Shown here: piece by piece, positions 13,523-63,639 of the stretch | Layout of the letters: every line of letters starts with the position of its first letter | How positions within the stretch are numbered: the first letter of the stretch is position 1 | Assembly: GCA_040954595.2 (NCBI GenBank) | Contig: CM082576.2 | Span: 2,268,760 to 2,332,759 of the forward strand | Length of the DNA: 64,000 bases | Direction of reading: 5' to 3' | Origin: Balanoglossus misakiensis | Lineage: Eukaryota > Animalia > Hemichordata | The notes under the pieces: model-generated | Told to the model about the DNA's origin: nothing | Databases searched by the model: none | Seen by the model: the letters and a program-made list of their open reading frames with translations, nothing else | Position numbers and translations under genes: made by a program

Positions 13523-13523
<1 letters not shown>

Positions 13524-31836: not shown

Positions 31837-31903
31837 ATGCGTTCTCTTACAGCAGCAGCGTTTGTGATTGTGAGTTTTGTGTCACTGTCACTATTTGTCA
31901 CAG
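31837..31903 (+). CDS. Shisa-like (six-Cys single-pass, STMC6-type) protein exon 1: signal peptide
   Basis: aaaATG start; hydrophobic leader MRSLTAAAFVIVSFVSLSLFVT(G); strong phase-1 donor CAG|gtaagt that matches the phase of exon 2. Confidence 0.75.
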
Positions 31904-33040
31904 GTAAGTCGTTTAAATCTAATTTCTATCGTGCCGAAGGACAGTTTGTAAAAGCGATGCCACGAAATTTTCTTAGCCAGCAAAACGCGGAATTTTGTAC
32001 AGGGGAAGTAAAGTTTGATACAGAATCTGAATTCCCTCAAACTTCGGACAACAGCAAAATGTGATTATCCCCACATAAGAATGTCAAGAGAAGAAACGCA
32101 GCAATCAGATTTAAATAAGATACAAAGTTGTGCTTTATATTTCGCTCTTAACTCGGCCAGTGCCCTTTACTTTCATTTCGACGTCACAATGACCGATTCG
32201 TAGAACAGGAACAATGGCACGAAGGAAGAAATGAGTCACGCTTTACTGTTTACATCTCTGATTCCAGATTTACGAACCAAACAACAGTGTTTCTGTTCTC
32301 GATTTTGTGTAAATTTATTTTCATGTTTTTATAGGAAAAGTTGACAATTGCCTATGAATCATTGGGGAAATAAATATAATTTGACATTGGCAAAGTAAGC
32401 ATTTTCTGTCGTGATTGATATTGAGATACAATGTATACGTAAACAGAATCACAATGCAGACCTTTTCTTACCAAAAGATTCAAAAGTGAACTTCTGCGAG
32501 GCATTAGATTTTTACACACATTAATTCTTTAAAAAAGATTTCTCACCTTACCAGCACAACAAAAAAATAACTTTTGAAAGTAACGTCATTTAAAACAACC
32601 GATCAAACAGGTTGTCCCACACTAACCTTCAAGGTGGCTAAGGTCAAACGTTTGGCGTCCACAATGATGTCATCCTTCCGAAGCCTGATCAGGACTTTTT
32701 TTTTGGGGGGGGGGGGGGGGGGGTCAATGCGAAGCTCTGTTATAATGTCAATTTCTATTTGTAATTTATACAAGTTTCCTTTGTTATTCAAGTCGTTTGA
32801 TTAACGAATCCCTAGTCTACGTCTATACATAAATGCAGTAGGCCTAAATAGTCCATGGGCCAGGACCCGATTTTTCATAAATTGGTATCAGAAAGATGGA
32901 CAAAGCCTCACATAGATTTTTGGAAAGGCCTATATCTCTAGATTATAAATTGGGGTGATAGCCCTGCCTATCGAGTAGCTTTCTGCATTTTTTCCCTCAA
33001 AAACTAATGTAAGAACCTAAAAATTTCCGACCCAAATTTT

Positions 33041-34120
33041 GGGGGTAGGGGAACTTTAAATTGCTGTAACTCCAGCAAAACTAAAGCCAGAACAGTCATT
33101 TACCACTCAAATTGTGTGTTTTTTAGAACTCTACCAAAATAATATTTTTTGGTGGTAATTCGTTTTGATTTGAGGTCAATAGAGGTCAAAAGGTCATGAA
33201 ATTCGGGTCATTCTGAACATTTGTAGTATGACTATTTCTTGAACGATTTTTTTGAACTTAAGTCTTTAAATGTCATTTACAAGATAAAATACTCTCCCAG
33301 AATCTATTTCAAACCAATAGAAAACCTTATTATTCATTTATGACCAGAAAAACACAAATAAAGAGAAACGACAGAAAGACATCCAATTTTCCACTCAGAT
33401 TTAAGGGTAGGGGAAACTTAAGTTCTTGTAACTCCGGCAAAAATAAACCCAGAACAGTCATCTACCACTCAAATTGTGTGTTTTTTAGAACTCTACCAAA
33501 ATAATATATTTTGGTGGTAATTCGTTTTGAATTGAGGTCAATAGAGGTCAAAAGGTCATGAAATTCGGGTCATTCTGAACATTTGTAGTATGACTATTTC
33601 TTGAACGATTTTTTTGAACTTAAGTCTTTAAATGTCATTTACAAGATAAAATACTCTCCCAGAATCTATTTCAAACCAATAAAAAACCCTATTATTCAAT
33701 TACGATCAGAAAAACACAAATACAGAGATACGGAAGAATGGCACAAGACTTCAGACCCTGTTATTGGGGTAGTAGTTGTAACTCCGGCAAAAATAAAGCC
33801 AGAAAAGTCATCTACCTCTCAAATTGTGTGTTTTTTAGCACTCTAGCGATTGTATATGTATTTGTTGCAATTTTGTTTTGAATTTAGGTCAAAGAGGTCA
33901 AAAGATCACAAGATTTGGGTAATTTCGAAAAATTATGGTACGAACATTTCCCGCATTAATTTTTTAAACCCAAGTCTTCAAATGTCATTTATGAGATAAA
34001 ATACTCTACACGATTTTTTTTCAGACCAATTGAAGACCTTATTATTCAATTACAATCAGAAAAAAAAATTAGTAGAGAAACGGGATAATAACAAACAATT
34101 TCCCACGGATTTGGGGGTAG
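33041..34120 (+). repeat. Three diverged tandem copies of an about 350-362-bp subterminal repeat in the left arm
   Basis: tgtaactcc...ctcaaattgtgtgtttttt recurs at about 33065, 33427 and 33777; each unit begins with gggtag. Confidence 0.85.
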
Positions 34121-34441
34121 GTTTGGCCATCTAACAGGTAAGTATACACCCAATTGATCATGCACATATGGTGTTTAGGAGAATGGATGTGCAAATTTGT
34201 GAACCTTTGCATGCTGCTCATGTGCACTGTACTTGTATGATGATTCCTAACAATACTACGAGAAGGGGCCATTATAGCATTGTAGCTCTGATTGTGTATT
34301 ATTGTTGGATACCATCCTTCAGTGTACAGGCACAGCAGATGACAAGCCAAGCATAGGTTCAAAAATCTGCTTGTTTTTTTTCCTCAACACAATATGAGCA
34401 TGATCTATTTATATTCAGGTCCAGTATAATAAATAAAAAAA

Positions 34442-34937
34442 ATGGCCTCGTCACTCTACAAGATCACGCCTCCTGGATAACTTTGCTGAATACAGCTAAC
34501 ATACAAAAATACAAACCAATTCAGGACCTCGCCATTGGTTTGGGCGAAGGTGAAATTCCTCAGGTGCAGTACCATCGGAAATGCCGAAGTCTCTTTACGA
34601 TGAAAAAGGCTCTTGAATCTATCCTTTCTAAAGAGCAGTCATCATCAACTGAGGGAACCAATACACTGGAACGTAAAAAAGAGGTCGAGCATACAAGGGT
34701 CTCGGTGTGATCACATTTGCCTATTTTGCTCCACCACCAAGTACATGAAGGGAAGTAGGACAAGAGCTCATTTAGTTCGTTGTCAGCAATTGCGTGCGGA
34801 CAACACATTAAGGGAGGCAGCAACAAGAAAAAACGACAGTAAAATTCGTGCACTTCTCAGTCGTGAGTTGGTTGCTGCTGAGGGTCACTATCATAGAAAG
34901 TGTTATAGGGACTATACAAGGCCTGATATTCAAGCAG
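34442..34937 (+). pseudogene. Transposase N-terminal remnant (left copy), frameshifted and with a deletion
   Basis: QVQYHRKCRSLFTMKK, then in another frame CLFCSTTKY...REAATRKNDSKIRALLSRELVAAEGHYHRKCYRDYTRPDIQA. These CxxC...YHxxC units resemble Academ transposase N-termini (recalled). Confidence 0.65.
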
Positions 34938-35700
34938 CGTAAGCAGGATTAGAGCAGATGTGGTGATGATACTTTCATGTGATTGTTTTTCTGCTGCAAG
35001 AAGTTCTTTTCAGCATTGTACTTCAGGTCAACAGTACCTATATCTAGTGAGACGGATATACAAGCACCCTACCATTTACATCATTGTCCCTTTGAATTCC
35101 GTATTTAGCGTATGCTGCAAGTTTTGTTGGTGGAATTGTTAACCTGTTTAACACCAATTTTGGTAACTAACTTGTTTGATAGATCAGTCAGGGGAACTAC
35201 CTCAGGGTTTGTGAACAAATCATTTCTGATAAAAGAAAATAACTCTTCTTGAGCAATTTGCAGGACATCCTCATAACTAGTATCTTGATCATGTTGACTT
35301 TCATCAACCTCCATATGACTTGAACCTGCTTGAGCAAAATAGGCAAATGTGATCACACCGAGACCCTTGTATGCTCGACCTCTTTTTTACGTTCCAGTGT
35401 ATTGGTTCCCTCAGTTGATGACGACTGCTCTTTAGAAAGGATAGATTCAAGAGCCTTTTTCATCGTAAAGAGACTTCGGCATTTCCGATGGTACTGCACC
35501 TGAGGAATTTCACCTTCGCCCAAACCAATGGCGAGGTCCTGAATTGGTTTGTATTTTTGTATGTTAGCTGTATTCAGCAAAGTTATCCAGGAGGCGTGAT
35601 CTTGTAGAGTGACGAGGCTTGCTTTATGGTCGGATTCATGACAGTCGAGAAAACAATCCCGTCGAGCCCTCTTGTGTGGAATAGAAGATGGGTTTGCCAT
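34938..35700 (-). pseudogene. Transposase N-terminal remnant (right copy), with deletion and frameshifts
   Basis: MANPSSIPHKRARRDCFLDCH...YHRKCRSLF joins to QAGSSHMEVDE...LFSFIRNDLFTNPEVVPLTDL, then continues as broken frames NLQHTLNTEFKG, GRVLVYP and SIITTSALIL. Confidence 0.6.
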
Positions 35701-36018
35701 TTTTTATTTATTATACTGGACCTGAATATAAATAGATCATACTCATATTGTGTCGAGGGGAAAAAATAAGCAGATTTTTGAACCTTTGCTTGGCTTGTCA
35801 TCTGCTGTGCCTGTACACTGTAGGATGGTATCCAACAATAATACACAATCAGAGCTACAATGCCTTAATGGCCCCTTCTCGTAGTAGTGTTAGGAATCAT
35901 CATACAAGTACAGTACACATGAGCAGCATGCAAAGGTTCACAAATTTGCACATCCGTTCTCCTAAACACCATATGTGCATGATCAGTTGGGTGTATACTT
36001 ACCTGTTAGATGGCCAAA

Positions 36019-37100
36019 CCTACCCCGAAATCCGTGGGAAATTGTTTGTTATTATCCCGTTTCTCTACTAATTTTTTTTCTGATTGTAATTGAATAATAA
36101 GGTCTTCAATTGGTCTGAAAAAAAAATCGTGTAGAGTATTTTATCTCATAAATGACATTTGAAGACTTGGGTTTAAAAAATTAATGCGGGAAATGTTCGT
36201 ACCATAATTTTTCGAAATTACCCAAATCTTGTGATCTTTTGACCTCTTTGACCTAAATTCAAAACAAAATTGCAACAAATACATATACAATCACTAGAGT
36301 GCTAAAAAACACACAATTTGAGAGGTAGATGACTTTTCTGGCTTTATTTTTGCCGGAGTTACAACTACTACCCCAATAACAGGGTCTGAAGTCTTGTGCC
36401 ATTCTTCCGTATCTCTGTATTTGTGTTTTTCTGATCGTAATTGAATAATAGGGTTTTTTATTGGTTTGAAATAGATTCTGGGAGAGTATTTTATCTTCTA
36501 AATGACATTTAAAGACGTAAGTTCAAAAAAATCGTTCAAGAAATAGTCATACTACAAATGTTCAGAATGACCCAAATTTCATGACCTTTTGACCTCTATT
36601 GGCCTTAATTCAAAACGAATTACCACCAAAATATATTATATTGGTAGAGTTCTAAAAAACACACAATTTGAGTGGTAGATGACTGTTCTGGGTTTATTTT
36701 TGCCGGAGTTACAAGAACTTAAGTTTCCCCTACCCTTAAATCTGAGTGGAAAATTGGATGTCTTTCTGTCGTTTCTCTTTATTTGTGTTTTTCTGGTCAT
36801 AAATGAATAATAAGGTTTTCTATTGGTTTGAAATAGATTCTGGGAGAGTATTTTATCTTGTAAAAGACATTTGAAGACTTAAGTTCAAAAAAATCGTTCA
36901 AGAAATAGTCATACTACAAATTTTCAGAATGACCCAAATTTCATGACCTTTTGACCTCTATTGACCTCAATTCAAAACGAATTGCCACCAAAATATATTA
37001 TATTGGTAGAGTTCTAAAAAACACACAATTTGAGTGGTAAATGACTGTTCTGGCTTTAGTTTTGCTGGAGTTACAGCAATTTAAAGTTCCCCTACCCCCA
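36019..37100 (-). repeat. Mirror copy of the three-unit subterminal repeat in the right arm
   Basis: aaaaaacacacaatttgag...ggagttaca recurs at about 36305, 36655 and 37016. Confidence 0.85.
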
Positions 37101-37317
37101 AAATTTGGGTCGGAAATTTTTAGGTTCTTACATTAGTTTTTGAGGGAAAAAATGCAGAAAGCTACTCGATAGGCAGGGCTATCACCCCAATTTATAATCT
37201 AGAGATATAGGCCTTTCCAAAAAACCATGTGAGGCTTTGTCCATCTTTCTGATACCAAATTCCTGTCTGGCCCATGGACTAAAACCCATGCAACTGTCTT
37301 AACTTCTTCTGATTCAG

Positions 37318-37477
37318 GTTCCCATGGTGTATACTGTGACGATCTTGGCTACAGTTGTCCAGATGAATTGTTTTCTGACAAATACTACTGCTGTGGTTCG
37401 GGGTTTCTTCAGTATTGCTGTGACTATGCCGACTGGTCTTCATATGATGATACATTGGGTGACGTAGCTACCATCAG
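37318..37477 (+). CDS. Shisa-like protein exon 2: Cys/Tyr-rich ectodomain
   Basis: gattcag acceptor and AG|gtaaat donor. (G)SHGVYCDDLGYSCPDELFSDKYYCCGSGFLQYCCDYADWSSYDDTLGDVATI has the C-C-CC-CC six-cysteine pattern. Confidence 0.85.
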
Positions 37478-37858
37478 GTAAATAAAATGTGTTGGTACAT
37501 CTGCAGTAATTGTAGCCTCGGTGGTCTGGTTGGACTTTTAAATATTACAATGGGTGAGCGAGTGTGATGGCGTGATACCTGTTACAGTAGCTGAGTGGAC
37601 TAGGGATACCTAATGGTGATGATTGGCGATCGTGGATGGTGGTGGGTTGGCCTGTGAAGCGTCTATGGGAATCTTGATATCTCCGTGTTTATTTTTAACA
37701 AAACTGCTCGTTTCGACGCGATATATGTATATACCATCATGACATGAAAATTTCGAAATCTACAAAAAATTATCTGAGTAAGATAAATTAGGCAGTGACA
37801 TCATGATAATATCTTAACATAAGATATATATTAAAAATTTATCTTTATTTGTCCACAG

Positions 37859-37986
37859 TACAACTATCATCATAATAATTTCATGCAGTGTTGTCGGTGG
37901 AATCATCCTTCTCATCATTTGTATCGCTGCCTGTGTGTGTTGCTGTGCTCAAGGGTCCGGCGGTAACAGAACCACTACTGTTACTC
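37859..37986 (+). CDS. Shisa-like protein exon 3: transmembrane helix with juxtamembrane Cys cluster
   Basis: ttgtccacag acceptor (phase 2) and C|gtaagt donor (phase 1). Reads TTIIIIISCSVVGGIILLIICIAACVCCCAQGSGGNRTTTVT. Confidence 0.85.
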
Positions 37987-38000
37987 GTAAGTGTACACCT

Positions 38001-41000
38001 ACGAAAAAACCCCACAAAAGTTGGCAAAGTCGGGAAATCGTCATTTTTGGCACTTTTCATGAGCTATAACCCATGAAAAGCGTCGAGAAACGACAAAAAC
38101 ACAAAAGTTGGCAAAGTCGGGAAATCGTCATTTTTGGCACTTTTCATGAGCCATGATTTTTTCAAAAAATGACGAAATTTTGAAAATCCGCAAAGTCGAA
38201 AAATTGTCATTTTCGGATGATTTTCATGAGCTATAACCCATGATTTTTTTCAAAAAAATGACGAAATTTTGAAAATCCGCAAAGTCGAAAAATTGTCATT
38301 TTCGGATGATTTTCATGAGCTATAACCCATGATTTTTTCAAAAAATGACGAAATTTTGAAAATCCGCAAAGTCGAAAAATTGTCATTTTCGGACGATTTT
38401 CATGAGCTATAACCCATGATTTTTTCAAAAAATGACGAAATTTTGAAAATCCGCAAAGTCGAAAAATTGTCATTTTCGGACGATTTTCATGAGCTATAAC
38501 CCATGATTTTTTCAAAAAATGACGAAATTTCGAAAATCCGCAAAGTCGAAAAATTGTCATTTTCGGACGATTTTCATGAGCTATAACCCATGATTTTTTC
38601 AAAAAATGACGAAATTTCGAAAATCCGCAAAGTCGAAAAATTGTCATTTTCGGACGATTTTCATGAGCTATAACCCATGATTTTTTCAAAAAATGACGAA
38701 ATTTCGAAAATCCGCAAAGTCGAAAAATTGTCATTTTCGGACGATTTTCATGAGCTATAACCCATGATTTTTTCAAAAAATGACGAAATTTCGAAAATCC
38801 GCAAAGTCGAAAAATTGTCATTTTCGGATGATTTTCATGAGCTATAACCCATGATTTTTTTCAAAAAAATGACGAAATTTTGAAAATCCGCAAAGTCGAA
38901 AAATTGTCATTTTCGGATGATTTTCATGAGCTATAACCCATGATTTTTTCAAAAAATGACGAAATTTTGAAAATCCGCAAAGTCGAAAAATTGTCATTTT
39001 CGGACGATTTTCATGAGCTATAACCCATGATTTTTTCAAAAAATGACGAAATTTTGAAAATCCGCAAAGTCGAAAAATTGTCATTTTCGGACGATTTTCA
39101 TGAGCTATAACCCATGATTTTTTCAAAAAATGACGAAATTTCGAAAATCCGCAAAGTCGAAAAATTGTCATTTTCGGACGATTTTCATGAGCTATAACCC
39201 ATGATTTTTTCAAAAAATGACGAAATTTCGAAAATCCGCAAAGTCGAAAAATTGTCATTTTCGGACGATTTTCATGAGCTATAACCCATGATTTTTTCAA
39301 AAAATGACGAAATTTCGAAAATCCGCAAAGTCGAAAAATTGTCATTTTCGGACGATTTTCATGAGCTATAACCCATGATTTTTTCAAAAAATGACGAAAT
39401 TTCGAAAATCCGCAAAGTCGAAAAATTGTCATTTTCGGACGATTTTCATGAGCTATAACCCATGATTTTTTCAAAAAATGACGAAATTTCGAAAATCCGC
39501 AAAGTCGAAAATTTGTCATTTTCGGACGATTTTCATGAGCTATAACCCATGATTTTTTCAAAAAATGACGAAATTTCGAAAATCCGCAAAGTCGAAAATT
39601 TGTCATTTTCGGACGATTTTCATGAGCTATAACCCATGATTTTTTCAAAAAATGACGAAATTTCGAAAATCCGCAAAGTCGAAAAATTGTCATTTTCGGA
39701 CGATTTTCATGAGCTATAACCCATGATTTTTTCAAAAAATGACGAAATTTCGAAAATCCGCAAAGTCGAAAATTTGTCATTTTCGGACGATTTTCATGAG
39801 CTATAACCCATGATTTTTTCAAAAAATGACGAAATTTCGAAAATCCGCAAAGTCGAAAATTTGTCATTTTCGGACGATTTTCATGAGCTATAACCCATGA
39901 TTTTTTCAAAAAATGACGAAATTTCGAAAATCCGCAAAGTCGAAAATTTGTCATTTTCGGACGATTTTCATGAGCTATAACCCATGATTTTTTCAAAAAA
40001 TGACGAAATTTCGAAAATCCGCAAAGTCGAAAAATTGTCATTTTCGGACGATTTTCATGAGCTATAACCCATGATTTTTTCAAAAAATGACGAAATTTTG
40101 AAAATCCGCAAAGTCGAAAAATTGTCATTTTCGGACGATTTTCATGAGCTATAACCCATGATTTTTTCAAAAAATGACGAAATTTCGAAAATCCGCAAAG
40201 TCGAAAAATTGTCATTTTCGGACGATTTTCATGAGCTATAACCCATGATTTTTTCAAAAAATGACGAAATTTCGAAAATCCGCAAAGTCGAAAAATTGTC
40301 ATTTTCGGACGATTTTCATGAGCTATAACCCATGATTTTTTCAAAAAATGACGAAATTTCGAAAATCCGCAAAGTCGAAAAATTGTCATTTTCGGACGAT
40401 TTTCATGAGCTATAACCCATGATTTTTTCAAAAAATGACGAAATTTCGAAAATCCGCAAAGTCGAAAAATTGTCATTTTCGGACGATTTTCATGAGCTAT
40501 AACCCATGATTTTTTCAAAAAATGACGAAATTTCGAAAATCCGCAAAGTCGAAAAATTGTCATTTTCGGACGATTTTCATGAGCTATAACCCATGATTTT
40601 TTCAAAAAATGACGAAATTTCGAAAATCCGCAAAGTCGAAAAATTGTCATTTTCGGACGATTTTCATGAGCTATAACCCATGATTTTTTCAAAAAATGAC
40701 GAAATTTCGAAAATCCGCAAAGTCGAAAAATTGTCATTTTCGGACGATTTTCATGAGCTATAACCCATGATTTTTTCAAAAAATGACGAAATTTCGAAAA
40801 TCCGCAAAGTCGAAAAATTGTCATTTTCGGACGATTTTCATGAGCTATAACCCATGATTTTTTCAAAAAATGACGAAATTTCGAAAATCCGCAAAGTCGA
40901 AAAATTGTCATTTTCGGACGATTTTCATGAGCTATAACCCATGATTTTTTCAAAAAATGACGAAATTTCGAAAATCCGCAAAGTCGAAAAATTGTCATTT

Positions 41001-44000
41001 TCGGACGATTTTCATGAGCTATAACCCATGATTTTTTCAAAAAATGACGAAATTTCGAAAATCCGCAAAGTCGAAAAATTGTCATTTTCGGACGATTTTC
41101 ATGAGCTATAACCCATGATTTTTTCAAAAAATGACGAAATTTCGAAAATCCGCAAAGTCGAAAAATTGTCATTTTCGGACGATTTTCATGAGCTATAACC
41201 CATGATTTTTTCAAAAAATGTCGAAATTTCGAAAATCCGCAAAGTCGAAAAATTGTCATTTTCGGACGATTTTCATGAGCTATAACCCATGATTTTTTCA
41301 AAAAATGACGAAATTTCGAAAATCCGCAAAGTCGAAAAATTGTCATTTTCGGACGATTTTCATGAGCTATAACCCATGATTTTTTCAAAAAATGACGAAA
41401 TTTCGAAAATCCGCAAAGTCGAAAAATTGTCATTTTCGGACGATTTTCATGAGCTATAACCCATGATTTTTTCAAAAAATGACGAAATTTCGAAAATCCG
41501 CAAAGTCGAAAAATTGTCATTTTCGGACGATTTTCATGAGCTATAACCCATGATTTTTTCAAAAAATGACGAAATTTCGAAAATCCGCAAAGTCGAAAAA
41601 TTGTCATTTTCGGACGATTTTCATGAGCTATAACCCATGATTTTTTCAAAAAATGACGAAATTTCGAAAATCCGCAAAGTCGAAAAATTGTCATTTTCGG
41701 ACGATTTTCATGAGCTATAAACCATGATTTTTTCAAAAAATGTCGAAATTTCGAAAATCCGCAAAGTCGAAAAATTGTCATTTTCGGACGATTTTCATGA
41801 GCTATAACCCATGATTTTTTCAAAAAATGACGAAATTTCGAAAATCCGCAAAGTCGAAAAATTGTCATTTTCGGACGATTTTCATGAGCTATAACCCATG
41901 ATTTTTTCAAAAAATGACGAAATTTCGAAAATCCGCAAAGTCGAAAAATTGTCATTTTCGGACGATTTTCATGAGCTATAACCCATGATTTTTTCAAAAA
42001 ATGACGAAATTTCGAAAATCCGCAAAGTCGAAAAATTGTCATTTTCGGACGATTTTCATGAGCTATAACCCATGATTTTTTCAAAAAATGACGAAATTTC
42101 GAAAATCCGCAAAGTCGAAAAATTGTCATTTTCGGACGATTTTCATGAGCTATAACCCATGATTTTTTCAAAAAATGACGAAATTTCGAAAATCCGCAAA
42201 GTCGAAAAATTGTCATTTTCGGACGATTTTCATGAGCTATAACCCATGATTTTTTCAAAAAATGACGAAATTTCGAAAATCCGCAAAGTCGAAAAATTGT
42301 CATTTTCGGACGATTTTCATGAGCTATAAACCATGATTTTTTCAAAAAATGTCGAAATTTCGAAAATCCGCAAAGTCGAAAAATTGTCATTTTCGGACGA
42401 TTTTCATGAGCTATAACCCATGATTTTGTCAAAAAATGACGAAATTTCGAAAATCCGCAAAGTCGAAAAATTGTCATTTTCGGACGATTTTCATGAGCTA
42501 TAACCCATGATTTTGTCAAAAAATGACGAAATTTCGAAAATCCGCAAAGTCGAAAAATTGTCATTTTCGGACGATTTTCATGAGCTATAACCCATGATTT
42601 TGTCAAAAAATGACGAAATTTCGAAAATCCGCAAAGTCGAAAAATTGTCATTTTCGGACGATTTTCATGAGCTATAACCCATGATTTTTTCAAAAAATGA
42701 CGAAATTTCGAAAATCCGCAAAGTCGAAAAATTGTCATTACGATTTCATGAGCTATAACCCATGATTTTTTCAAAAATGACGAAATTTCGAAAATCCGCA
42801 AAGTCGAAAAATTGTCATTTTCGGACGATTTTCATGAGCTATAACCCATGATTTTGTCAAAAAATGACGAAATTTCGAAAATCCGCAAAGTCGAAAAATT
42901 GTCATTTTCGGACGATTTCAAGTCAAATCCGCAAAGTCGAAAAATTGTCATTTTCGGACGATTTTCATGAGCTATAACCCATGATTTTTTCAAAAAATGA
43001 CGAAATTTCGAAAATCCGCAAAGTCGAAAAATTGTCATTTTCGGACGATTTTCATGAGCTATAACCCATGATTTTTTCAAAAAATGACGAAATTTCGAAA
43101 ATCCGCAAAGTCGAAAAATTGTCATTTTCGGACGATTTTCATGAGCTATAACCCATGATTTTTTCAAAAAATGACGAAATTTCGAAAATCCGCAAAGTCG
43201 AAAAATTGTCATTTTCGGACGATTTTCATGAGCTATAACCCATGATTTTTTCAAAAAATGACGAAATTTCGAAAATCCGCAAAGTCGAAAAATTGTCATT
43301 TTCGGACGATTTTCATGAGCTATAACCCATGATTTTTTCAAAAAATGACGAAATTTCGAAAATCCGCAAAGTCGAAAAATTGTCATTTTCGGACGATTTT
43401 CATGAGCTATAACCCATGATTTTTTCAAAAAATGACGAAATTTCGAAAATCCGCAAAGTCGAAAAATTGTCATTTTCGGACGATTTTCATGAGCTATAAC
43501 CCATGATTTTTTCAAAAATGACGAAAATTTCGAAAATCCGCAAAGTCGAAAAATTGTCATTTTCGGACGATTTTCATGAGCTATAACCCATGATTTTTTC
43601 AAAAAATGACGAAATTTTCGAAAATCCGCAAAGTCGAAAAATTGTCATTTTCGGACGATTTCATGAGCTATAACCCATGATTTTTTCAAAAAATGACGAA
43701 ATTTCGAAAATCCGCAAAGTCGAAAAATTGTCATTTTCGGACGATTTCATGAGCTATAACCCATGATTTTTTCAAAAAATGACGAAATTTCGAAAATCCG
43801 CAAAGTCGAAAAATTGTCATTTTCGGACGATTTTCATGAGCTATAACCCATGATTTTTCAAAAATGACGAAATTTCGAAAATCCGCAAAGTCGAAAAATT
43901 GTCATTTTCGGACGATTTTCATGAGCTATAACCCATGATTTTTTCAAAAAATGACGAAATTTCGAAAATCCGCAAAGTCGAAAAATTGTCATTTTCGGAC

Positions 44001-53000: not shown

Positions 53001-56000
53001 CAAAAAATGACGAAATTTCGAAAATCCGCAAAGTCGAAAAATTGTCATTTTCGGACGATTTTCATGAGCTATAACCCATGATTTTTTCAAAAAATGACGA
53101 AATTTCGAAAATCCGCAAAGTCGAAAAATTGTCATTTTCGGACGATTTTCATGAGCTATAACCCATGATTTTTTCAAAAAATGACGAAATTTCGAAAATC
53201 CGCAAAGTCGAAAAATTGTCATTTTCGGACGATTTTCATGAGCTATAACCCATGATTTTTTCAAAAAATGACGAAATTTCGAAAATCCGCAAAGTCGAAA
53301 AATTGTCATTTTCGGACGATTTTCATGAGCTATAACCCATGATTTTGTCAAAAAATGACGAAATTTCGAAAATCCGCAAAGTCGAAAAATTTTCATTTTC
53401 GGACGATTTTCATGAGCTATAACCCATGATTTTTTCAAAAAATGACGAAATTTCGAAAATCCGCAAAGTCGAAAAATTGTCATTTTCGGACGATTTTCAT
53501 GAGCTATAACCCATGATTTTGTCAAAAAATGACGAAATTTCGAAAATCCGCAAAGTCGAAAAATTGTCATTTTCGGACGATTTTCATGAGCTATAACCCA
53601 TGATTTTGTCAAAAAATGACGAAATTTCGAAAATCCGCAAAGTCGAAAAATTGTCATTTTCGGACGATTTTGTCCATGATTTTTTCAAAAAATGACGAAA
53701 TTTCGAAAATCCGCAAAGTCGAAAAATTGTCATTTTCGGACGATTTTCATGAGCTATAACCCATGATTTTTTCAAAAAATGACGAAATTTGGAAAATCCG
53801 CAAAGTCGAAAAATTGTCATTTTCGGACGATTTTCATGAGCTATAACCCATGATTTTTTCAAAAAATGACGAAATTTCGAAAATCCGCAAAGTCGAAAAA
53901 TTGTCATTTTCGGACGATTTTCATGAGCTATAACCCATGATTTTTTCAAAAAATGACGAAATTTCGAAAATCCGCAAAGTCGAAAAATTGTCATTTTCGG
54001 ACGATTTTCATGAGCTATAACCCATGATTTTTTCAAAAAATGACGAAATTTCGAAAATCCGCAAAGTCGAAAAATTGTCATTTTCGGACGATTTTCATGA
54101 GCTATAACCCATGATTTTTTCAAAAAATGACGAAATTTCGAAAATCCGCAAAGTCGAAAAATTGTCATTTTCGGACGATTTTCATGAGCTATAACCCATG
54201 ATTTTTTCAAAAAATGACGAAATTTCGAAAATCCGCAAAGTCGAAAAATTGTCATTTTCGGACGATTTTCATGAGCTATAACCCATGATTTTTTCAAAAA
54301 ATGACGAAATTTCGAAAATCCGCAAAGTCGAAAAATTGTCATTTTCGGACGATTTTCATGAGCTATAACCCATGATTTTTTCAAAAAATGACGAAATTTC
54401 GAAAATCCGCAAAGTCGAAAAATTGTCATTTTCGGACGATTTTCATGAGCTATAACCCATGATTTTTTCAAAAAATGACGAAATTTCGAAAATCCGCAAA
54501 GTCGAAAAATTGTCATTTTCGGACGATTTTCATGAGCTATAACCCATGATTTTTTCAAAAAATGACGAAATTTCGAAAATCCGCAAAGTCGAAAAATTGT
54601 CATTTTCGGACGATTTTCATGAGCTATAACCCATGATTTTTTCAAAAAATGACGAAATTTCGAAAATCCGCAAAGTCGAAAAATTGTCATTTTCGGACGA
54701 TTTTCATGAGCTATAACCCATGATTTTTTCAAAAAATGACGAAATTTCGAAAATCCGCAAAGTCGAAAAATTGTCATTTTCGGACGATTTTCATGAGCTA
54801 TAACCCATGATTTTTTCAAAAAATGACGAAATTTTGAAAATCCGCAAAGTCGAAAAATTGTCATTTTCGGACGATTTTCATGAGCTATAACCCATGATTT
54901 TTTCAAAAAATGACGAAATTTTGAAAATCCGCAAAGTCGAAAAATTGTCATTTTCGGACGATTTTCATGAGCTATAACCCATGATTTTTTCAAAAAATGA
55001 CGAAATTTCGAAAATCCGCAAAGTCGAAAAATTGTCATTTTCGGACGATTTTCATGAGCTATAACCCATGATTTTTTCAAAAAATGACGAAATTTCGAAA
55101 ATCCGCAAAGTCGAAAAATTGTCATTTTCGGACGATTTTCATGAGCTATAACCCATGATTTTTTCAAAAAATGACGAAATTTTGAAAATCCGCAAAGTCG
55201 AAAATTGTCATTTTCGGACGATTTTCATGAGCTATAACCCATGATTTTTTCAAAAAATGACGAAATTTCGAAAATCCGCAAAGTCGAAAAATTGTCATTT
55301 TCGGACGATTTTCATGAGCTATAACCCATGATTTTTTCAAAAAATGACGAAATTTCGAAAATCCGCAAAGTCGAAAAATTGTCATTTTCGGACGATTTTC
55401 ATGAGCTATAACCCATGATTTTTTCAAAAAATGACGAAATTTCGAAAATCCGCAAAGTCGAAAAATTGTCATTTTCGGACGATTTTCATGAGCTATAACC
55501 CATGATTTTTTCAAAAAATGACGAAATTTCGAAAATCCGCAAAGTCGAAAAATTGTCATTTTCGGACGATTTTCATGAGCTATAACCCATGATTTTTTCA
55601 AAAAATGACGAAATTTCGAAAATCCGCAAAGTCGAAAAATTGTCATTTTCGGACGATTTTCATGAGCTATAACCCATGATTTTTTCAAAAAATGACGAAA
55701 TTTCGAAAATCCGCAAAGTCGAAAAATTGACATTTTCGGACGATTTTCATGAGCTATAACCCATGATTTTTTCAAAAAATGACGAAATTTCGAAAATCCG
55801 CAAAGTCGAAAAATTGTCATTTTCGGACGATTTTCATGAGCTATAACCCATGATTTTTTCAAAAAATGACGAAATTTCGAAAATCCGCAAAGTCGAAAAA
55901 TTGTCATTTTCGGACGATTTTCATGAGCTATTACCCATGATTTTTTCAAAAAAATGACGAAATTTCGAAAATCCGCAAAGTCGAAAAATTGTCATTTTCG

Positions 56001-59000
56001 GACGATTTTCATGAGCTATAACCCATGATTTTTTCAAAAAATGACGAAATTTCGAAAATCCGCAAAGTCGAAAAATTGTCATTTTCGGACGATTTTCATG
56101 AGCTATAACCCATGATTTTTTCAAAAAATGACGAAATTTCGAAAATCCGCAAAGTCGAAAAATTGTCATTTTCGGACGATTTTCATGAGCTATAACCCAT
56201 GATTTTTTCAAAAAATGACGAAATTTCGAAAATCCGCAAAGTCGAAAAATTGTCATTTTCGGACGATTTTCATGAGCTATAACCCATGATTTTTTCAAAA
56301 AATGACGAAATTTCGAAAATCCGCAAAGTCGAAAAATTGTCATTTTCGGACGATTTTCATGAGCTATAACCCATGATTTTTTCAAAAAATGACGAAATTT
56401 CGAAAATCCGCAAAGTCGAAAAATTGTCATTTTCGGACGATTTTCATGAGCTATAACCCATGATTTTTTCAAAAAATGACGAAATTTCGAAAATCCGCAA
56501 AGTCGAAAAATTGTCATTTTCGGACGATTTTCATGAGCTATAACCCATGATTTTTTCAAAAAATGACGAAATTTCGAAAATCCGCAAAGTCGAAAAATTG
56601 TCATTTTCGGACGATTTTCATGAGCTATAACCCATGATTTTTTCAAAAAATGACGAAATTTCGAAAATCCGCAAAGTCGAAAAATTGTCATTTTCGGACG
56701 ATTTTCATGAGCTATAACCCATGATTTTTTCAAAAAATGACGAAATTTCGAAAATCCGCAAAGTCGAAAAATTGTCATTTTCGGACGATTTTCATGAGCT
56801 ATAACCCATGATTTTGTCAAAAAATGACGAAATTTCGAAAATCCGCAAAGTCGAAAAATTGTCATTTTCGGACGATTTTCATGAGCTATAACCCATGATT
56901 TTGTCAAAAAATGACGAAATTTCGAAAATCCGCAAAGTCGAAAAATTGTCATTTTCGGACGATTTTCATGAGCTATAACCCATGATTTTTTCAAAAAATG
57001 ACGAAATTTCGAAAATCCGCAAAGTTGAAAAATTGTCATTTTCGGACGATTTTCATGAGCTATAACCCATGATTTTTTCAAAAAATGACGAAATTTCGAA
57101 AATCCGCAAAGTCGAAAAATTGTCATTTTCGGACGATTTTCATGAGCTATAACCCATGATTTTTTCAAAAAATGACGAAATTTCGAAAATCCGCAAAGTC
57201 GAAAAATTGTCATTTTCGGACGATTTTCATGAGCTATAACCCATGATTTTTTCAAAAAATGACGAAATTTCGAAAATCCGCAAAGTCGAAAAATTGTCAT
57301 TTTCGGACGATTTTCATGAGCTATAACCCATGATTTTTTCAAAAAATGACGAAATTTCGAAAATCCGCAAAGTCGAAAAATTGTCATTTTCGGACGATTT
57401 TCATGAGCTATAACCCATGATTTTTTCAAAAAATGACGAAATTTCGAAAATCCGCAAAGTCGAAAAATTGTCATTTTCGGACGATTTTCATGAGCTATAA
57501 CCCATGATTTTTTCAAAAAATGACGAAATTTGGAAAATCCGCAAAGTCGAAAAATTGTCATTTTCGGACGATTTTCATGAGCTATAACCCATGATTTTTT
57601 CAAAAAATGACGAAATTTTGAAAATCCGCAAAGTCGAAAAATTGTCATTTTCGGACGATTTTCATGAGCTATAACCCATGATTTTTTCAAAAAATGACGA
57701 AATTTCGAAAATCCGCAAAGTCGAAAAATTGTCATTTTCGGACGATTTTCATGAGCTATAACCCATGATTTTTTCAAAAAATGACGAAATTTCGAAAATC
57801 CGCAAAGTCGAAAAATTGTCATTTTCGGACGATTTTCATGAGCTATAACCCATGATTTTTTCAAAAAATGACGAAATTTCGAAAATCCGCAAGTCGAAAA
57901 ATTGTCATTTTCGGACGATTTTCATGAGCTATAACCCATGATTTTTTCAAAAAATGACGAAATTTCGAAAATCCGCAAAGTCGAAAAATTGTCATTTTCG
58001 GACGATTTTCATGAGCTATAACCCATGATTTTTTCAAAAAATGACGAAATTTCGAAAATCCGCAAAGTCGAAAAATTGTCATTTTCGGACGATTTTCATG
58101 AGCTATAACCCATGATTTTTTCAAAAAATGACGAAATTTTCAAAATCCGCAAAGTCGAAAAATTGTCATTTTCGGACGATTTTCATGAGCTATAACCCAT
58201 GATTTTTTCAAAAAATGACGAAATTTTCGAAAATCCGCAAAGTCGAAAAATTGTCATTTTCGGACGATTTTCATGAGCTATAACCCATGATTTTTTCAAA
58301 AAATGACGAAATTTCGAAAATCCGCAAAGTCGAAAAATTGTCATTTTCGGACGATTTTCATGAGCTATAACCCATGATTTTTTCAAAAAATGACGAAATT
58401 TCGAAAATCCGCAAAGTCGAAAAATTGTCATTTTCGGACGATTTTCATGAGCTATAACCCATGATTTTTTCAAAAAATGACGAAATTTCGAAAATCCGCA
58501 AAGTCGAAAAATTGTCATTTTCGGACGATTTTCATGAGCTATAACCCATGATTTTTTCAAAAAATGACGAAATTTCGAAAATCCGCAAAGTCGAAAAATT
58601 GTCATTTTCGGACGATTTTCATGAGCTATAACCCATGATTTTTTCAAAAAATGGCGAAATTTCGAAAATCCGCAAAGTCGAAAAATTGTCATTTTCGGAC
58701 GATTTTCATGAGCTATAACCCATGATTTTTTCAAAAAATGACGAAATTTTCAAAATCCGCAAAGTCGAAAAATTGTCATTTTCGGACGATTTTCATGAGC
58801 TATAACCCATGATTTTTTCAAAAAATGACGAAATTTCGAAAATCCGCAAAGTCGAAAAATTGTCATTTTCGGACGATTTTCATGAGCTATAACCCATGAT
58901 TTTTTCAAAAAATGACGAAATTTCGAAAATCCGCAAAGTCGAAAAATTGTCATTTTCGGACGATTTTCATGAGCTATAACCCATGATTTTTTCAAAAAAT

Positions 59001-62000
59001 GACGAAATTTCGAAAATCCGCGAAGTCGAAAAATTGTCATTTTCGGACGATTTTCATGAGCTATAACCCATGATTTTTTCAAAAAATGACGAAATTTCGA
59101 AAATCCGCAAAGTCGAAAAATTGTCATTTTCGGACGATTTTCATGAGCTATAACCCATGATTTTGTCAAAAAATGACGAAATTTCGAAAATCCGCAAAGT
59201 CGAAAAATTGTCATTTTCGGACGATTTTCATGAGCTATAACCCATGATTTTTTCAAAAAATGACGAAATTTCGAAAATCCGCAAAGTCGAAAAATTGTCA
59301 TTTTCGGACGATTTTCATGAGCTATAACCCATGATTTTTTCAAAAAATGACGAAATTTCGAAAATCCGCAAAGTCGAAAAATTGTCATTTTCGGACGATT
59401 TTCAAGAGCTATAACCCATGATTTTTTCAAAAAATGACGAAATTTCGAAAATCCGCAAAGTCGAAAAATTGTCATTTTCGGACGATTTTCATGAGCTATA
59501 ACCCATGATTTTTTCAAAAAATGACGAAATTTCGAAAATCCGCAAAGTCGAAAAATTGTCATTTTCGGACGATTTTCATGAGCTATAACCCATGATTTTT
59601 TCAAAAAATGACGAAATTTCGAAAATCCGCAAAGTCGAAAAATTGTCATTTTCGGACGATTTTCATGAGCTATAACCCATGATTTTTTCAAAAAATGACG
59701 AAATTTCGAAAATCCGCAAAGTCGAAAAATTGTCATTTTCGGACGATTTTCATGAGCTATAACCCATGATTTTTTCAAAAAATGACGAAATTTCGAAAAT
59801 CCGCAAAGTCGAAAAATTGTCATTTTCGGACGATTTTCATGAGCTATAACCCATGATTTTTTCAAAAAATGACGAAATTTCGAAAATCCGCAAAGTCGAA
59901 AAATTGTCATTTTCGGACGATTTTCATGAGCTATAACCCATGATTTTTTCAAAAAATAACGAAATTTCGAAAATCCGCAAAGTCGAAAAATTGTCATTTT
60001 CGGACGATTTTCATGAGCTATAACCCATGATTTTTTCAAAAAATGACGAAATTTGAAAATCCGCAAAGTCGAAAAATTGTCATTTTCGGACGATTTTCAT
60101 GAGCTATAACCCATGATTTTTTCAAAAAATGACGAAATTTGAAAATCCGCAAAGTCGAAAAATTGTCATTTTCGGACGATTTTCATGAGCTATAACCCAT
60201 GATTTTTTCAAAAAATGACGAAATTTTGAAAATCCGCAAAGTCGAAAAATTGTCATTTTCGGACGATTTTCATGAGCTATAACCCATGATTTTTTCAAAA
60301 AATGACGAAATTTTCGAAATCCGCAAAGTCGAAAAATTGTCATTTTCGGACGATTTTCATGAGCTATAACCCATGATTTTTTCAAAAAATGACGAAATTT
60401 CGAAAATCCGCAAAGTCGAAAAATTGTCATTTTCGGACGATTTTCATGAGCTATAACCCATGATTTTTTCAAAAAATGACGAAATTTCGAAAATCCGCAA
60501 AGTCGAAAAATTGTCATTTTCGGACGATTTTCATGAGCTATAACCCATGATTTTTTCAAAAAATGACGAAATTTCGAAAATCCGCAAAGTCGAAAAATTG
60601 TCATTTTCGGACGATTTTCATGAGCTATAACCCATGATTTTTTCAAAAAATGACGAAATTTCGAAAATCCGCAAAGTCGAAAAATTGTCATTTTCGGACG
60701 ATTTTCATGAGCTATAACCCATGATTTTTTCAAAAAATGACGAAATTTCGAAAATCCGCAAAGTCGAAAAATTGTCATTTTCGGACGATTTTCATGAGCT
60801 ATAACCCATGATTTTTTCAAAAAATGACGAAATTTCGAAAATCCGCAAAGTCGAAAAATTGTCATTTTCGGACGATTTTCATGAGCTATAACCCATGATT
60901 TTTTCAAAAAATGACGAAATTTGGAAAATCCGCAAAGTCGAAAAATTGTCATTTTCGGACGATTTTCATGAGCTATAACCCATGATTTTTTCAAAAAATG
61001 ACGAAATTTCGAAAATCCGCAAAGTCGAAAAATTGTCATTTTCGGACGATTTTCATGAGCTATAACCCATGATTTTTTCAAAAAATGACGAAATTTCGAA
61101 AATCCGCAAAGTCGAAAAATTGTCATTTTCGGACGATTTTCATGAGCTATAACCCATGATTTTTTCAAAAAATGACGAAATTTTGAAAATCCGCAAAGTC
61201 GAAAAATTGTCATTTACGGATGATTTTCATGAGCTATAACCCATGATTTTTACAAAAAATGACGAAATTTTGAAAATCCGCAAAGTCGAAAAATTGTCAT
61301 TTTCGGATGATTTTCATGAGCTATAACCCATGATTTTTTCAAAAAATGACGAAATTTTGAAAATCAGCAAAGTCGAAAAATTGTCATTTTCGGATGATTT
61401 TCATGAGCTATAACCCATGATTTTTTCAAAAAATGACGAAATTTTGAAAATCCGCAAAGTCGAAAAATTGTCATTTTCGGACGATTTTCATGAGCTATAA
61501 CCCATGATTTTTTCAAAAAATGACGAAATTTTCGAAATCCGCAAAGTCGAAAAATTGTCATTTTCGGACGATTTTCATGAGCTATAACCCATGATTTTTT
61601 CAAAAAATGACGAAATTTCGAAAATCCGCAAAGTCGAAAAATTGTCATTTTCGGACGATTTTCATGAGCTATAACCCATGATTTTTTCAAAAAATGACGA
61701 AATTTCGAAAATCCGCAAAGTCGAAAAATTGTCATTTTCGGACGATTTTCATGAGCTATAACCCATGATTTTTTCAAAAAATGACGAAATTTCGAAAATC
61801 CGCAAAGTCGAAAAATTGTCATTTTCGGACGATTTTCATGAGCTATAACCCATGATTTTTTCAAAAAATGACGAAATTTCGAAAATCCGCAAAGTCGAAA
61901 AATTGTCATTTTCGGACGATTTTCATGAGCTATAACCCATGATTTTTTCAAAAAATGACGAAATTTCGAAAATCCGCAAAGTCGAAAAATTGTCATTTTC

Positions 62001-63424
62001 GGACGATTTTCATGAGCTATAACCCATGATTTTTTCAAAAAATGACGAAATTTCGAAAATCCGCAAAGTCGAAAAATTGTCATTTTCGGACGATTTTCAT
62101 GAGCTATAACCCATGATTTTTTCAAAAAATGACGAAATTTGGAAAATCCGCAAAGTCGAAAAATTGTCATTTTCGGACGATTTTCATGAGCTATAACCCA
62201 TGATTTTTTCAAAAAATGACGAAATTTCGAAAATCCGCAAAGTCGAAAAATTGTCATTTTCGGACGATTTTCATGAGCTATAACCCATGATTTTTTCAAA
62301 AAATGACGAAATTTCGAAAATCCGCAAAGTCGAAAAATTGTCATTTTCGGACGATTTTCATGAGCTATAACCCATGATTTTTTCAAAAAATGACGAAATT
62401 TCGAAAATCCGCAAAGTCGAAAAATTGTCATTTTCGGACGATTTTCATGAGCTATAACCCATGATTTTTTCAAAAAATGACGAAATTTCGAAAATCCGCA
62501 AAGTCGAAAAATTGTCATTTTCGGACGATTTTCATGAGCTATAACCCATGATTTTTTCAAAAAATGACGAAATTTTGAAAATCCGCAAAGTCGAAAAATT
62601 GTCATTTTCGGACGATTTTCATGAGCTATAACCCATGATTTTTTCAAAAAATGACGAAATTTTGAAAATCCGCAAAGTCGAAAAATTGTCATTTTCGGAC
62701 GATTTTCATGAGCTATAACCCATGATTTTTTCAAAAAATGACGAAATTTCGAAAATCCGCAAAGTCGAAAAATTGTCATTTTCGGACGATTTTCATGAGC
62801 TATAACCCATGATTTTTTCAAAAAATGACGAAATTTCGAAAATCCGCAAAGTCGAAAAATTGTCATTTTCGGACGATTTTCATGAGCTATAACCCATGAT
62901 TTTTTCAAAAAATGACGAAATTTCGAAAATCCGCAAAGTCGAAAAATTGTCATTTTCGGACGATTTTCATGAGCTATAACCCATGATTTTTTCAAAAAAT
63001 GACGAAATTTCGAAAATCCGCAAAGTCGAAAAATTGTCATTTTCGGACGATTTTCATGAGCTATAACCCATGATTTTTTCAAAAAATGACGAAATTTTGA
63101 AAATCAGCAAAGTCGAAAAATTGTCATTTTCGGATGATTTTCATGAGCTATAACCCATGATTTTTTCAAAAAATGACGAAATTTCGAAAATCAGCAAAGT
63201 CAAAAAATTGTCATTTTCGGATGATTTTCATGAGCTATAACCCATGATTTTTTCAAAAAATGACGAAATTTCGAAAATCAGCAAAGTCAAAAAATTGTCA
63301 TTTTCGGATGATTTTCATGAGCTATAACCCATGAAAAGCGTCGAGAATCCACAAAAACGCAAAAGTTGGCAAATTCGGGAAATCGTCATTTTTGGCACTT
63401 TTCATGAGCTATAACCCATGAAAA
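38001..63424. repeat. Satellite array of about 290 copies of an 87-bp monomer filling intron 3 of the Shisa-like gene
   Basis: Consensus ctataacccatgattttttcaaaaaatgacgaaatttcgaaaatccgcaaagtcgaaaaattgtcattttcggacgattttcatgag (87 nt, 28 G+C) runs from 38151 to 63321, about 25.2 kb. Diverged 87-bp monomers lie at 38064-38150 and 63322-63408, with partial copies outside them. Confidence 0.99.
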
Positions 63425-63451
63425 CTTATGATTTTCATCTTTCTCTTACAG

Positions 63452-63639
63452 ATAACCAAGTAGCCCCTGCCACTCAAATGAACGTTGTGTCAAGCAATTC
63501 TGTGCAAGGTGGTTACTATGGAGCCCAGCCGCCACCACCGCCACCAACCTACAGCGCTCAACCGGCCTACGGGACCGACCCACCAATATATGGTCAACCC
63601 GGAGGTCAACCATCTCAATCATATCCATCCAAGACATAA
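63452..63639 (+). CDS. Shisa-like protein exon 4: P/Q/Y-rich cytoplasmic tail with PPxY motifs; total protein 180 aa
   Basis: ctttctcttacag acceptor, phase 1, matching exon 3. (H)NQVAPATQMNVV...GAQPPPPPPTYSAQPAYGTDPPIYGQPGGQPSQSYPSKT* contains PPTY and PPIY. Confidence 0.8.

What the first reader, a model, noticed from the sequence alone, without database searches (positions are those of the whole stretch)
31837..63639. A 543-nt Shisa-like coding sequence spread over 32 kb, with one intron that is almost pure satellite DNA
Seen in sequence: four exons (31837-31903, 37318-37477, 37859-37986, 63452-63639) join with consistent phases (1, 2, 1) into a stop-free 180-aa protein. It has a signal peptide, a C-C-CC-CC ectodomain, a TM helix with a CVCCC cluster and a PPxY tail. 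Intron 3 (37987-63451, 25,465 nt) has only about 14 nt of non-satellite sequence after the donor and about 27 nt before the acceptor. Established: this architecture defines Shisa-like/WBP1/CYYR1-type adaptors, whose PPxY motifs bind WW-domain NEDD4-family ligases, and satellite-filled giant introns are known from Drosophila Y-linked fertility genes. Inference: making the signalling tail requires transcribing about 290 satellite monomers, so array length or chromatin state could tune expression, timing or tail inclusion.
Basis: partly seen in the sequence, partly recalled or inferred. Interest (0 to 1): 0.85.

Follow-up and report, generated by a model that had tools for sequence, protein, structure and literature searches.

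The report
Satellite-stuffed intron, spliced out cleanly
An ordinary small membrane-adaptor gene, likely of an acorn worm, has a 25-kb intron that is 99.8% tandem repeat, and one sequencing contig joins the flanking exons exactly; the repeat likely grew there recently as tolerated filler because the strand that is read holds almost no false splice or stop-and-cleave signals.

Summary
The four exons give a stop-free 180-aa Shisa-like protein. One 400-nt contig of run X3 (labelled 'DNA?', probably RNA) joins 37986 to 63452 with no mismatch: one contig, one sample. The host is probably an acorn worm, a group with expanded Shisa genes (PMC7653359).

Intron 3 holds two repeats: 289 near-identical 87-bp units (0.4% substitutions) set between about three older units, only 70% alike, joined at shared sequence. 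Both array edges carry a variant absent from the interior, which fits one array that grew in place. The sense strand has one GTRAG (the real donor), five YAG (one the real acceptor) and no AATAAA/ATTAAA. That explains the tolerance and gives no basis for regulated tail inclusion.

At 25 kb it is far below the megabase Drosophila Y introns, and closer to euchromatic satellite clusters and intronic VNTRs. This scan noted similar introns in other genomes. A regulatory role and the array's true length are untested.

The parts
31837..31903 (+). Exon 1 coding part: ATG and hydrophobic, signal-peptide-like segment
   Evidence: ATG preceded by an in-frame upstream stop 40 codons away; GT donor; hydropathy. 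Not covered by any read test.
32849..37281 (.). 4,433-bp foldback DNA element in intron 1: arms of about 1.9 kb, 1836 matches to 36 mismatches, each with a 362-bp tandem x2.9; ends TAGT..ACTA; AAA on both flanks (possible 3-bp target duplication); probably a non-autonomous, Academ-like transposon
   Evidence: High summed depth in X1/X2 and a copy with another flank in X3. The Academ label rests on TSD length (PMC10045372 passage: AcademX 3-4 bp) and on recalled termini; no Pfam hit for its ORF remnants.
37318..37477 (+). Exon 2: six-cysteine ectodomain
   Evidence: Pfam Shisa_N E=2.8e-4, 21.3 bits against a cut-off of 22; top two ESM Atlas clusters are Shisa_N at 0.86 and 0.77, leads only
37859..37986 (+). 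Exon 3: transmembrane helix and CVCCC cluster
   Evidence: last 61 nt lie in the joined X3 contig
37987..38000 (+). Intron 3 donor (GTAAGT) and 14 nt not assigned to repeat
   Evidence: Only GTRAG in the whole intron
38001..38150 (+). Left type-B repeat units: one partial and one of 80 nt lacking 7 nt at the junction with type A
   Evidence: about 70% identical to type A, 95% to the right-hand B unit
38151..63328 (+). Type-A array: 289 units of 87 bp, 32% GC, 0.4% substitutions from the modal unit
   Evidence: edge variant 68C>T at 10 places, all within about 0.8 kb of the left edge or 2.1 kb of the right edge
63329..63424 (+). Right type-B unit (87 nt) plus a 9-nt start of the next; shares 23 nt with type A across the junction
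   Evidence: X1 and X2 contigs with other acceptor letters also carry B sequence here
63425..63451 (+). 27-nt acceptor region: branch-point-like motifs, pyrimidine tract and CAG
   Evidence: Pyrimidine fraction 0.92 against 0.38-0.69 for the eight commonest other AG contexts; CAG kept in three sequence versions
63452..63639 (+). Exon 4 coding part: Pro/Gln-rich tail with PPTY and PPIY, stop
   Evidence: joined to exon 3 in the X3 contig
63640..64000 (+). 3'UTR, running from about 63743 into a high-copy element that holds the only AATAAA (63923)
   Evidence: X3 contig continues to 63790; summed depth 1e5-1e6 from 63736 on

Best explanation
This is a Shisa-like membrane-adaptor gene, likely of an acorn worm and likely working, whose third intron holds a repeat array that likely expanded there recently and is likely tolerated as neutral filler because the transcribed strand offers almost no false splice or polyadenylation signals. 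Shown: the B-A-B layout, the sequence shared at the junctions, the motif census and the exon 3-exon 4 join in one contig. Inferred history: a short array of about three type-B units sat in a small intron. A related type-A unit or block came in by recombination or gene conversion through the 23 nt that A and B share. It then grew from the inside by unequal exchange or slippage, so older variants stayed at both edges. Inferred splicing: the spliceosome pairs the only strong donor with the only pyrimidine-backed YAG, 25 kb downstream. The cost would be some 10-25 minutes of extra transcription (recalled rate of 1-2 kb/min). Inferred protein function, by analogy to CYYR1 (PMC11399591): a single-pass, probably palmitoylated adaptor whose two PPxY motifs would recruit NEDD4-family ligases for endolysosomal sorting of itself, a cargo or the ligase.
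For: Join: an X3 record of 400 nt, depth 5.1, + strand, lies on 37926-37990 (record 1-65, 1 other letter = GTAA vs ATAA) and on 63452-63790 (record 62-400, 0 other letters); its loose end equals window 37957-37986. It carries the window's own letters at 63474, 63655 and 63716, where X1 or X2 contigs differ. Silent strand: 5 YAG, 1 GTRAG and 0 AATAAA/ATTAAA in 25,465 nt, against 693, 41 and 36 expected at the density of window 1-37986; the opposite strand has 289 TAG. One array grown in place: all 10 places of variant 68T are at the two edges, while 272 units carry 68C; neighbouring units share variants (lag 1: 35 shared vs 5.0 in shuffles, 0 of 400 shuffles reached it). Recent: 0.4% substitutions in the array against 11/338, 7/327 and 9/189 other letters in X1/X2 contigs over the unique flanks. 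Family abundant elsewhere: summed X1 depth 194,462 on the shared core vs about 16 on unique DNA, with many different loose ends (not a copy number). Ordinary gene: 16 Shisa genes in Saccoglossus and 4 in Ptychodera (PMC7653359 table passage); the neighbouring kintoun is closest to Ptychodera flava, 69%.
Against: The join rests on one contig of depth 5.1 from one sample, possibly the window's own source, in a run labelled 'DNA?'. Neutrality is a default and was not tested. The signal-free strand is one monomer in one orientation: a unit lacking all three motifs arises in 4.0% of base shuffles but 46% of dinucleotide-preserving shuffles, so it explains tolerance and does not show selection. No allele with a short intron was seen, and no contig spans either A/B junction together with unique DNA. 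Three versions of the acceptor region hint at a further copy of the gene, which could be the RNA's source. Pfam Shisa_N falls 0.7 bit short of its cut-off.
Confidence: 0.72

Rival explanations
1. The array is a length-dependent regulator. It draws heterochromatin marks aimed at the abundant satellite family (for example after stress) or delays transcription, and so sets the level or timing of the adaptor.
For: Precedent: dispersed TCAST1 repeats suppress linked genes after heat stress, more so with more copies (PMC4537270 abstract); genes with intronic alpha repeats go down after heat stress (PMC7348797 abstract and passages). The family core looks abundant in this genome. The unit has 6 CpG, and its RNA folds better than shuffles (z=-2.6, 3 of 200).
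Against: No expression, chromatin or population data were available. The array looks younger than the divergence between alleles, which leaves little time for co-option. The folded RNA has an empty centroid structure. The 10.9-bp AA/TT period is not special when all periods are considered (P=0.43). There is no polyadenylation signal for a tail-less isoform.
Confidence: 0.12
2. The gene and a repeat array are real, but the 25-kb length is an assembly product (collapsed or inflated).
For: 186 of 289 units are identical and there are 42 indel events, clustered in some bins (0.54 per unit at 42331-44485), as read errors would be. No read spanning the array could be laid.
Against: The longest exact repeat inside the array is 1,077 bp, so accurate long reads could be tiled through it. 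The variant pattern is ordered, not random. Shared edge variants and the exon join argue against a chimeric join of two loci.
Confidence: 0.08
3. The array-bearing copy is silent or dying, and the joined contig comes from another allele, a near-identical paralogue or a processed DNA copy.
For: X3 is labelled 'DNA?'. X1 shows several contigs over exon 4, with depths 42 = about 13 + 29.7, and the acceptor region has three versions. Exon 2 differs in X1/X2 contigs at 12 listed sites, 10 of them amino-acid changing.
Against: The window's frame, splice sites and six Cys are intact. The X3 contig matches the window at every one of 339 exon-4/UTR letters, where the other contigs differ. X3 holds 28 million letters with a longest record of 6.4 kb, against 314-339 million and 43-107 kb for X1/X2, as a transcriptome would. 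No loose end at 63452 is listed for X1/X2 (60 rows hidden).
Confidence: 0.08

Closest known systems
Shisa-like / STMC6 single-pass adaptors (CYYR1, WBP1, VOPP1, TMEM92, fly CG15760); PMC5578492 passages, PMC11399591 passages, PMC7653359 section 13 and table passage
   Same: Signal-like N-terminus, six Cys in C*C*CC*CC, one TM helix, Cys cluster after it, PPxY tail
   Different: No eight-Cys pattern of vertebrate Shisa (PMC10531659 passage). No aromatic residues in the TM segment, so the four-aromatic motif named in PMC5578492 is absent. No close homologue found. Subfamily not placed.
Rsp-like clusters inserted into 1.688 clusters in Drosophila X euchromatin (PMC7403614, abstract and passages read)
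   Same: A young homogeneous array lies inside an older satellite cluster, with shared sequence at one junction and a short deletion at the other
   Different: Here A and B are related (about 70%) and share 23 nt, not 4-7 nt between unrelated repeats. The array is 25 kb and fills an intron nearly to both splice sites. The earlier B-only state is inferred, not shown by synteny.
Drosophila Y-loop gigantic introns, kl-3 and kl-5 (PMC6508621, abstract and outline only)
   Same: Intron made almost wholly of satellite DNA, transcribed and spliced out
   Different: Megabases of simple repeats, about 90 h of spermatocyte transcription and dedicated RNA-binding proteins there; 25 kb of an 87-bp unit among ordinary genes here, with no sign of a special programme
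Human intronic VNTRs: CACNA1C intron 3, 30-bp unit (PMC11118589 passages); ABCA7 intron 18 (PMC13747324, search listing only)
   Same: Recently expanded, multi-kb tandem array inside an intron of an expressed gene
   Different: Those are described as locus VNTRs with known length alleles and reported trait associations. This unit belongs to an apparently genome-wide family, and its polymorphism is only predicted.
Dispersed TCAST1 (Tribolium; PMC4537270 abstract) and intronic alpha-satellite elements (PMC7348797 passages)
   Same: Members of a major satellite family lying in or near genes
   Different: Those are single repeats or short arrays (1-4 monomers for alpha) with measured stress-dependent silencing; here 289 units and no measurement

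Membership tests
Shisa-like (STMC6) adaptors | Six Cys in C*C*CC*CC after the signal sequence | tested here: met
   Cys 29, 36, 47, 48, 56, 57; pattern from PMC5578492
Shisa-like (STMC6) adaptors | Signal peptide | tested here: inconclusive
   Hydrophobic N-terminal stretch by hydropathy only; no signal-peptide predictor run; exon 1 not confirmed by reads
Shisa-like (STMC6) adaptors | Single TM helix with Cys cluster at its C-terminal end | tested here: met
   Hydrophobic windows starting at 69-94; Cys 97, 101, 103-105
Shisa-like (STMC6) adaptors | Cytoplasmic PY motifs | tested here: met
   PPTY 149 and PPIY 162
Shisa-like (STMC6) adaptors | Pfam Shisa_N at or above its curated cut-off | tested here: inconclusive
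   21.3 bits vs 22, E=2.8e-4, exon 2 alone; Atlas 0.86, below 0.9
Shisa-like (STMC6) adaptors | Binding of NEDD4-family WW domains | not testable with these tools
   Known for CYYR1 (PMC11399591); inferred here
WBP1/VOPP1/TMEM92/CG15760-type subgroup | Four-aromatic motif at the TM segment (PMC5578492 S1 legend) | tested here: not met
   No aromatic residue in the exon-3-encoded TM segment
Vertebrate-type Shisa (Shisa1-9) | Eight-Cys pattern C*C*CC*C*CC*C (PMC10531659) | tested here: not met
   Only six ectodomain Cys
Y-loop intron gigantism | Megabase intron of simple satellite | tested here: not met
   25,465 nt; 87-bp complex unit
Y-loop intron gigantism | Germline-specific programme with dedicated RNA-binding proteins | not testable with these tools
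   No tissue or protein data
Euchromatic new-in-old satellite cluster (Rsp-like in 1.688 type) | Older units on both sides and shared sequence at the junction | tested here: met
   B units 95% alike on both sides; 23 nt shared at the right junction and 7 nt missing at the left
Euchromatic new-in-old satellite cluster (Rsp-like in 1.688 type) | Orthologous locus holds the old repeat alone | not testable with these tools
   No own genome and no eukaryote genome collection; other contigs show B sequence at the acceptor side only
Satellite DNA (genome-wide family) as opposed to a single-locus VNTR | High copy number at other loci | tested here: inconclusive
AcademX transposons (intron 1 element) | 3-4-bp TSD; Academ transposase | tested here: inconclusive
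   AAA on both flanks, which chance could give; no Pfam hit for ORF remnants; defining paper not held

The most novel reading that the evidence does not exclude
This satellite family is 'splice-invisible' on one strand and so can fill introns wall to wall in that orientation only. The locus segregates as a natural series from a roughly 300-bp to a 25-kb intron, and array length tunes the level or timing of a NEDD4-recruiting adaptor through heterochromatin or transcription delay. That would be a ready natural experiment on intron growth by complex satellites in a deuterostome.
Probability: 0.12. Interest if true: 0.62.

Novelty: new member of a known kind. Interest (0 to 1): 0.3.

Why it matters
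It is a clean, base-resolved example of how an intron can grow about 80-fold (inferred from the roughly 300 nt left without the type-A array) without breaking splicing: a young array nested in old units of its own family, with a strand almost free of processing signals. It gives a testable genome-wide prediction: intronic arrays of this family should lie mostly in the signal-free orientation. Gene finders and short-read assemblies would likely split such a gene and lose its PPxY tail. It does not reveal a new kind of system; both the protein family and repeat-filled introns are known.

Tried and rejected
No whole genome is held, so other arrays, paralogues and orientation bias could not be counted. 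No RNA holder was listed; X3's nature is inferred from its size and content.

Homologue searches with single exon pieces found nothing useful: exon 2, 0 of 5 candidates; exon 3, 0 of 13; the profile-free scan of 1.84 billion representatives gave 2 hits to long Cys-repeat-like proteins, not followed. These are weak blanks from 42-52-aa queries. The AlphaFold model of exon 2 without an alignment had pLDDT 52.9, so no fold search was run.

A 38-nt satellite pattern had 0 exact matches in metagenome contigs. Rfam gave 0 matches on 31000-39000. X1/X2 have no cover at 37950-37991; a hole proves nothing.

Rejected: regulated tail exclusion (no canonical poly(A) signal). Recursive splicing (no AGGT in the repeat). 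A long-period higher-order repeat (lags 7, 13, 22, 34 and 57 not above shuffles). PATC-like 10-bp periodicity as a special feature. A chimeric join of two loci (exon join plus shared edge variant). Origin of A from B by gradual change in place (sharp boundary, no intermediates).

Literature searches for satellite DNA in hemichordate introns and for invertebrate long intronic arrays listed no paper on this locus or repeat. The library lacks most subscription papers, and Pei and Grishin 2012 was not read.
Full report
Observation. Joining 31837-31903, 37318-37477, 37859-37986 and 63452-63639 gives 543 nt and a stop-free 180-aa protein, with GT donors, CAG acceptors and phases 1, 2, 1. It has six ectodomain Cys in C-C-CC-CC order, a hydrophobic N-terminus, one TM stretch followed by CVCCC, and PPTY and PPIY in the tail. 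Exon 2 alone matches Pfam Shisa_N at E=2.8e-4, 21.3 bits against a cut-off of 22; the other three exon pieces gave no informative family. The two best ESM Atlas clusters are Shisa_N, at 0.86 and 0.77, which are leads only. No second Cys pattern of this kind lies in the window. Intron 3 is 25,465 nt, of which 38001-63424 (99.84%) is repeat.

Host. The neighbouring kintoun ORF is closest to Ptychodera flava (69%), then Glandiceps (57%) and Saccoglossus (51%), ahead of echinoderms at about 42%, so the window is probably from an acorn worm. Shisa genes are expanded there: 16 in S. kowalevskii and 4 in P. flava (PMC7653359, table passage and section 13). The protein is therefore an ordinary member of a known, locally expanded family.

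Is the intron spliced? Three runs of one sample hold the locus, none on record as RNA. In one search (36900-38150) an X3 record of 400 nt, depth 5.1, lies on 37926-37990 with its letters 1-65 and one other letter. In one search (63400-64000) an X3 record of the same length, depth and strand lies on 63452-63790 with letters 62-400 and no other letter. Its loose end before 63452 is exactly window 37957-37986, and the single mismatch is explained by intron GTAA against exon ATAA. So exon 3 is joined to exon 4 at the predicted place.

What X3 is. X3 has 28 million letters and a longest record of 6.4 kb, against 339 and 314 million and 107 and 43 kb for X1 and X2. I infer that it is an RNA library; a processed DNA copy is not excluded but would also imply splicing at this junction. 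The contig carries the window's letters at 63474, 63655 and 63716, where X1 or X2 contigs differ, which favours the window's own copy as its source. Limits: one contig, one sample that may be the window's source, and the first two junctions were not seen.

Anatomy of the array. Type A spans 38151-63328: 289 units of 87 bp, 186 identical to the modal unit, 100 substitutions in all (0.4%) and 42 indel events. On both sides lie type-B units, also of 87-bp design, about 70% identical to A and 95% to each other. The boundary is sharp. At the right junction A and B share 23 nt; at the left the B unit lacks 7 nt. Variant 68C>T occurs 10 times, 4 near the left edge and 6 near the right, never in the interior, where 272 units carry C. 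Adjacent units share variants far more than shuffles do (lag 1: 35 vs 5.0; lag 2: 16 vs 5.1; 0 of 400 shuffles), while longer lags are not significant.

Reading of the anatomy. This fits one array, seeded into a short B cluster by recombination through the shared motif and grown from within (inference). The closest described process is Rsp-like entering 1.688 clusters at microhomologies (PMC7403614, abstract and passages). The array is far more uniform than the flanks differ between contigs (11/338, 7/327, 9/189), so its growth or homogenisation is probably recent and its length probably polymorphic (inference). The longest exact internal repeat is 1,077 bp, so the length is resolvable by accurate long reads in principle, but I could not check it. 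The core shared by A and B has a summed X1 depth of 194,462 against about 16 on unique DNA, with many different loose ends.

Why it is tolerated. The sense strand of the intron has one GTRAG (the donor), five YAG (the acceptor and four purine-flanked CAG in edge variants), no AGGT within the repeat and no AATAAA or ATTAAA. Ordinary DNA of this window would give about 41 GTRAG, 693 YAG and 36 such poly(A) signals in that length. The opposite strand has a TAG in each of 289 units. The true acceptor has a pyrimidine fraction of 0.92 against 0.38-0.69 for the commonest other AG contexts. This accounts for clean splicing. It does not show selection: it is one monomer in one orientation, and 46% of dinucleotide-preserving shuffles (4.0% of base shuffles) are equally clean. 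It also removes the sequence basis for regulated tail loss, since read-through gives 27 codons and a stop with no canonical poly(A) signal behind it.

Comparison. Y-loop genes have megabase introns of simple repeats transcribed over about 90 h with dedicated proteins (PMC6508621, abstract only); this intron fails the size and repeat-type tests. Intronic VNTRs such as CACNA1C (PMC11118589 passages) and dispersed TCAST1 or alpha repeats (PMC4537270 abstract; PMC7348797 passages) are nearer in scale and give precedent for the regulatory rival, which nothing here tests. For the protein, CYYR1 binds WWP1 through PPxY motifs and routes it to lysosomes (PMC11399591 passages); a like role is inferred here. 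Earlier unreviewed notes of this scan describe a 29-kb repeat-filled intron in an octopus kinase gene and a 12-kb one in a transposase gene. I did not test them and count them as leads, not support. No supplements were read.

Verdict. The feature is real and the junction is supported. The best reading is a normal Shisa-like gene carrying a recent, tolerated satellite expansion (0.72). Rivals are a regulatory role (0.12), wrong array length (0.08) and a silent copy (0.08). It is a new member of known kinds; interest 0.3.

Noticed in passing
window 32849-37281: 4.4-kb foldback element filling 82% of intron 1, with arms about 98% alike and an internal 362-bp tandem. An X2 contig runs into 25 unlike letters exactly at its right edge (record 13), a hint of a haplotype or copy without the insertion.
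   Followed up: partly
window 37318-37477: X1/X2 contigs differ from the window at 12 listed sites in the ectodomain exon, 10 changing the amino acid and none a Cys; the 3 listed sites in exons 3-4 are all silent (Fisher p=0.022; 11 table rows hidden). Possibly a fast-changing binding surface, or a paralogue.
   Followed up: partly
window 63446-63448 and 63597-63754: Three versions of the acceptor region with CAG kept, and several contigs over exon 4 and the UTR in one sample, suggest a further copy of this gene.
   Followed up: no
window 63743-64000: Very high-copy element with inverted segments begins in the 3'UTR and holds the only AATAAA after the stop (63923); the X3 contig reaches into it. 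It may supply the gene's poly(A) signal.
   Followed up: partly
window 11316-15534: Class C GPCR (ANF_receptor, NCD3G, 7tm_3) with a 2.1-kb uninterrupted ORF.
   Followed up: no
window 17570-25456: Kintoun/DNAAF2 orthologue, used to place the host; the ORF at 24761-25456 is presumed to be its last exon.
   Followed up: partly
window 1287-3569: 3' exons of an ACBD3/GCP60-like gene (GOLD_2 match; poly-Q from a CAA repeat at 1836-1882; gene name recalled).
   Followed up: no
window 63425-63440: The 27-nt acceptor stretch contains an 11-nt match to the edge variant of the type-A unit, perhaps the original landing homology or a decayed unit (seen by eye; chance not computed).
   Followed up: no
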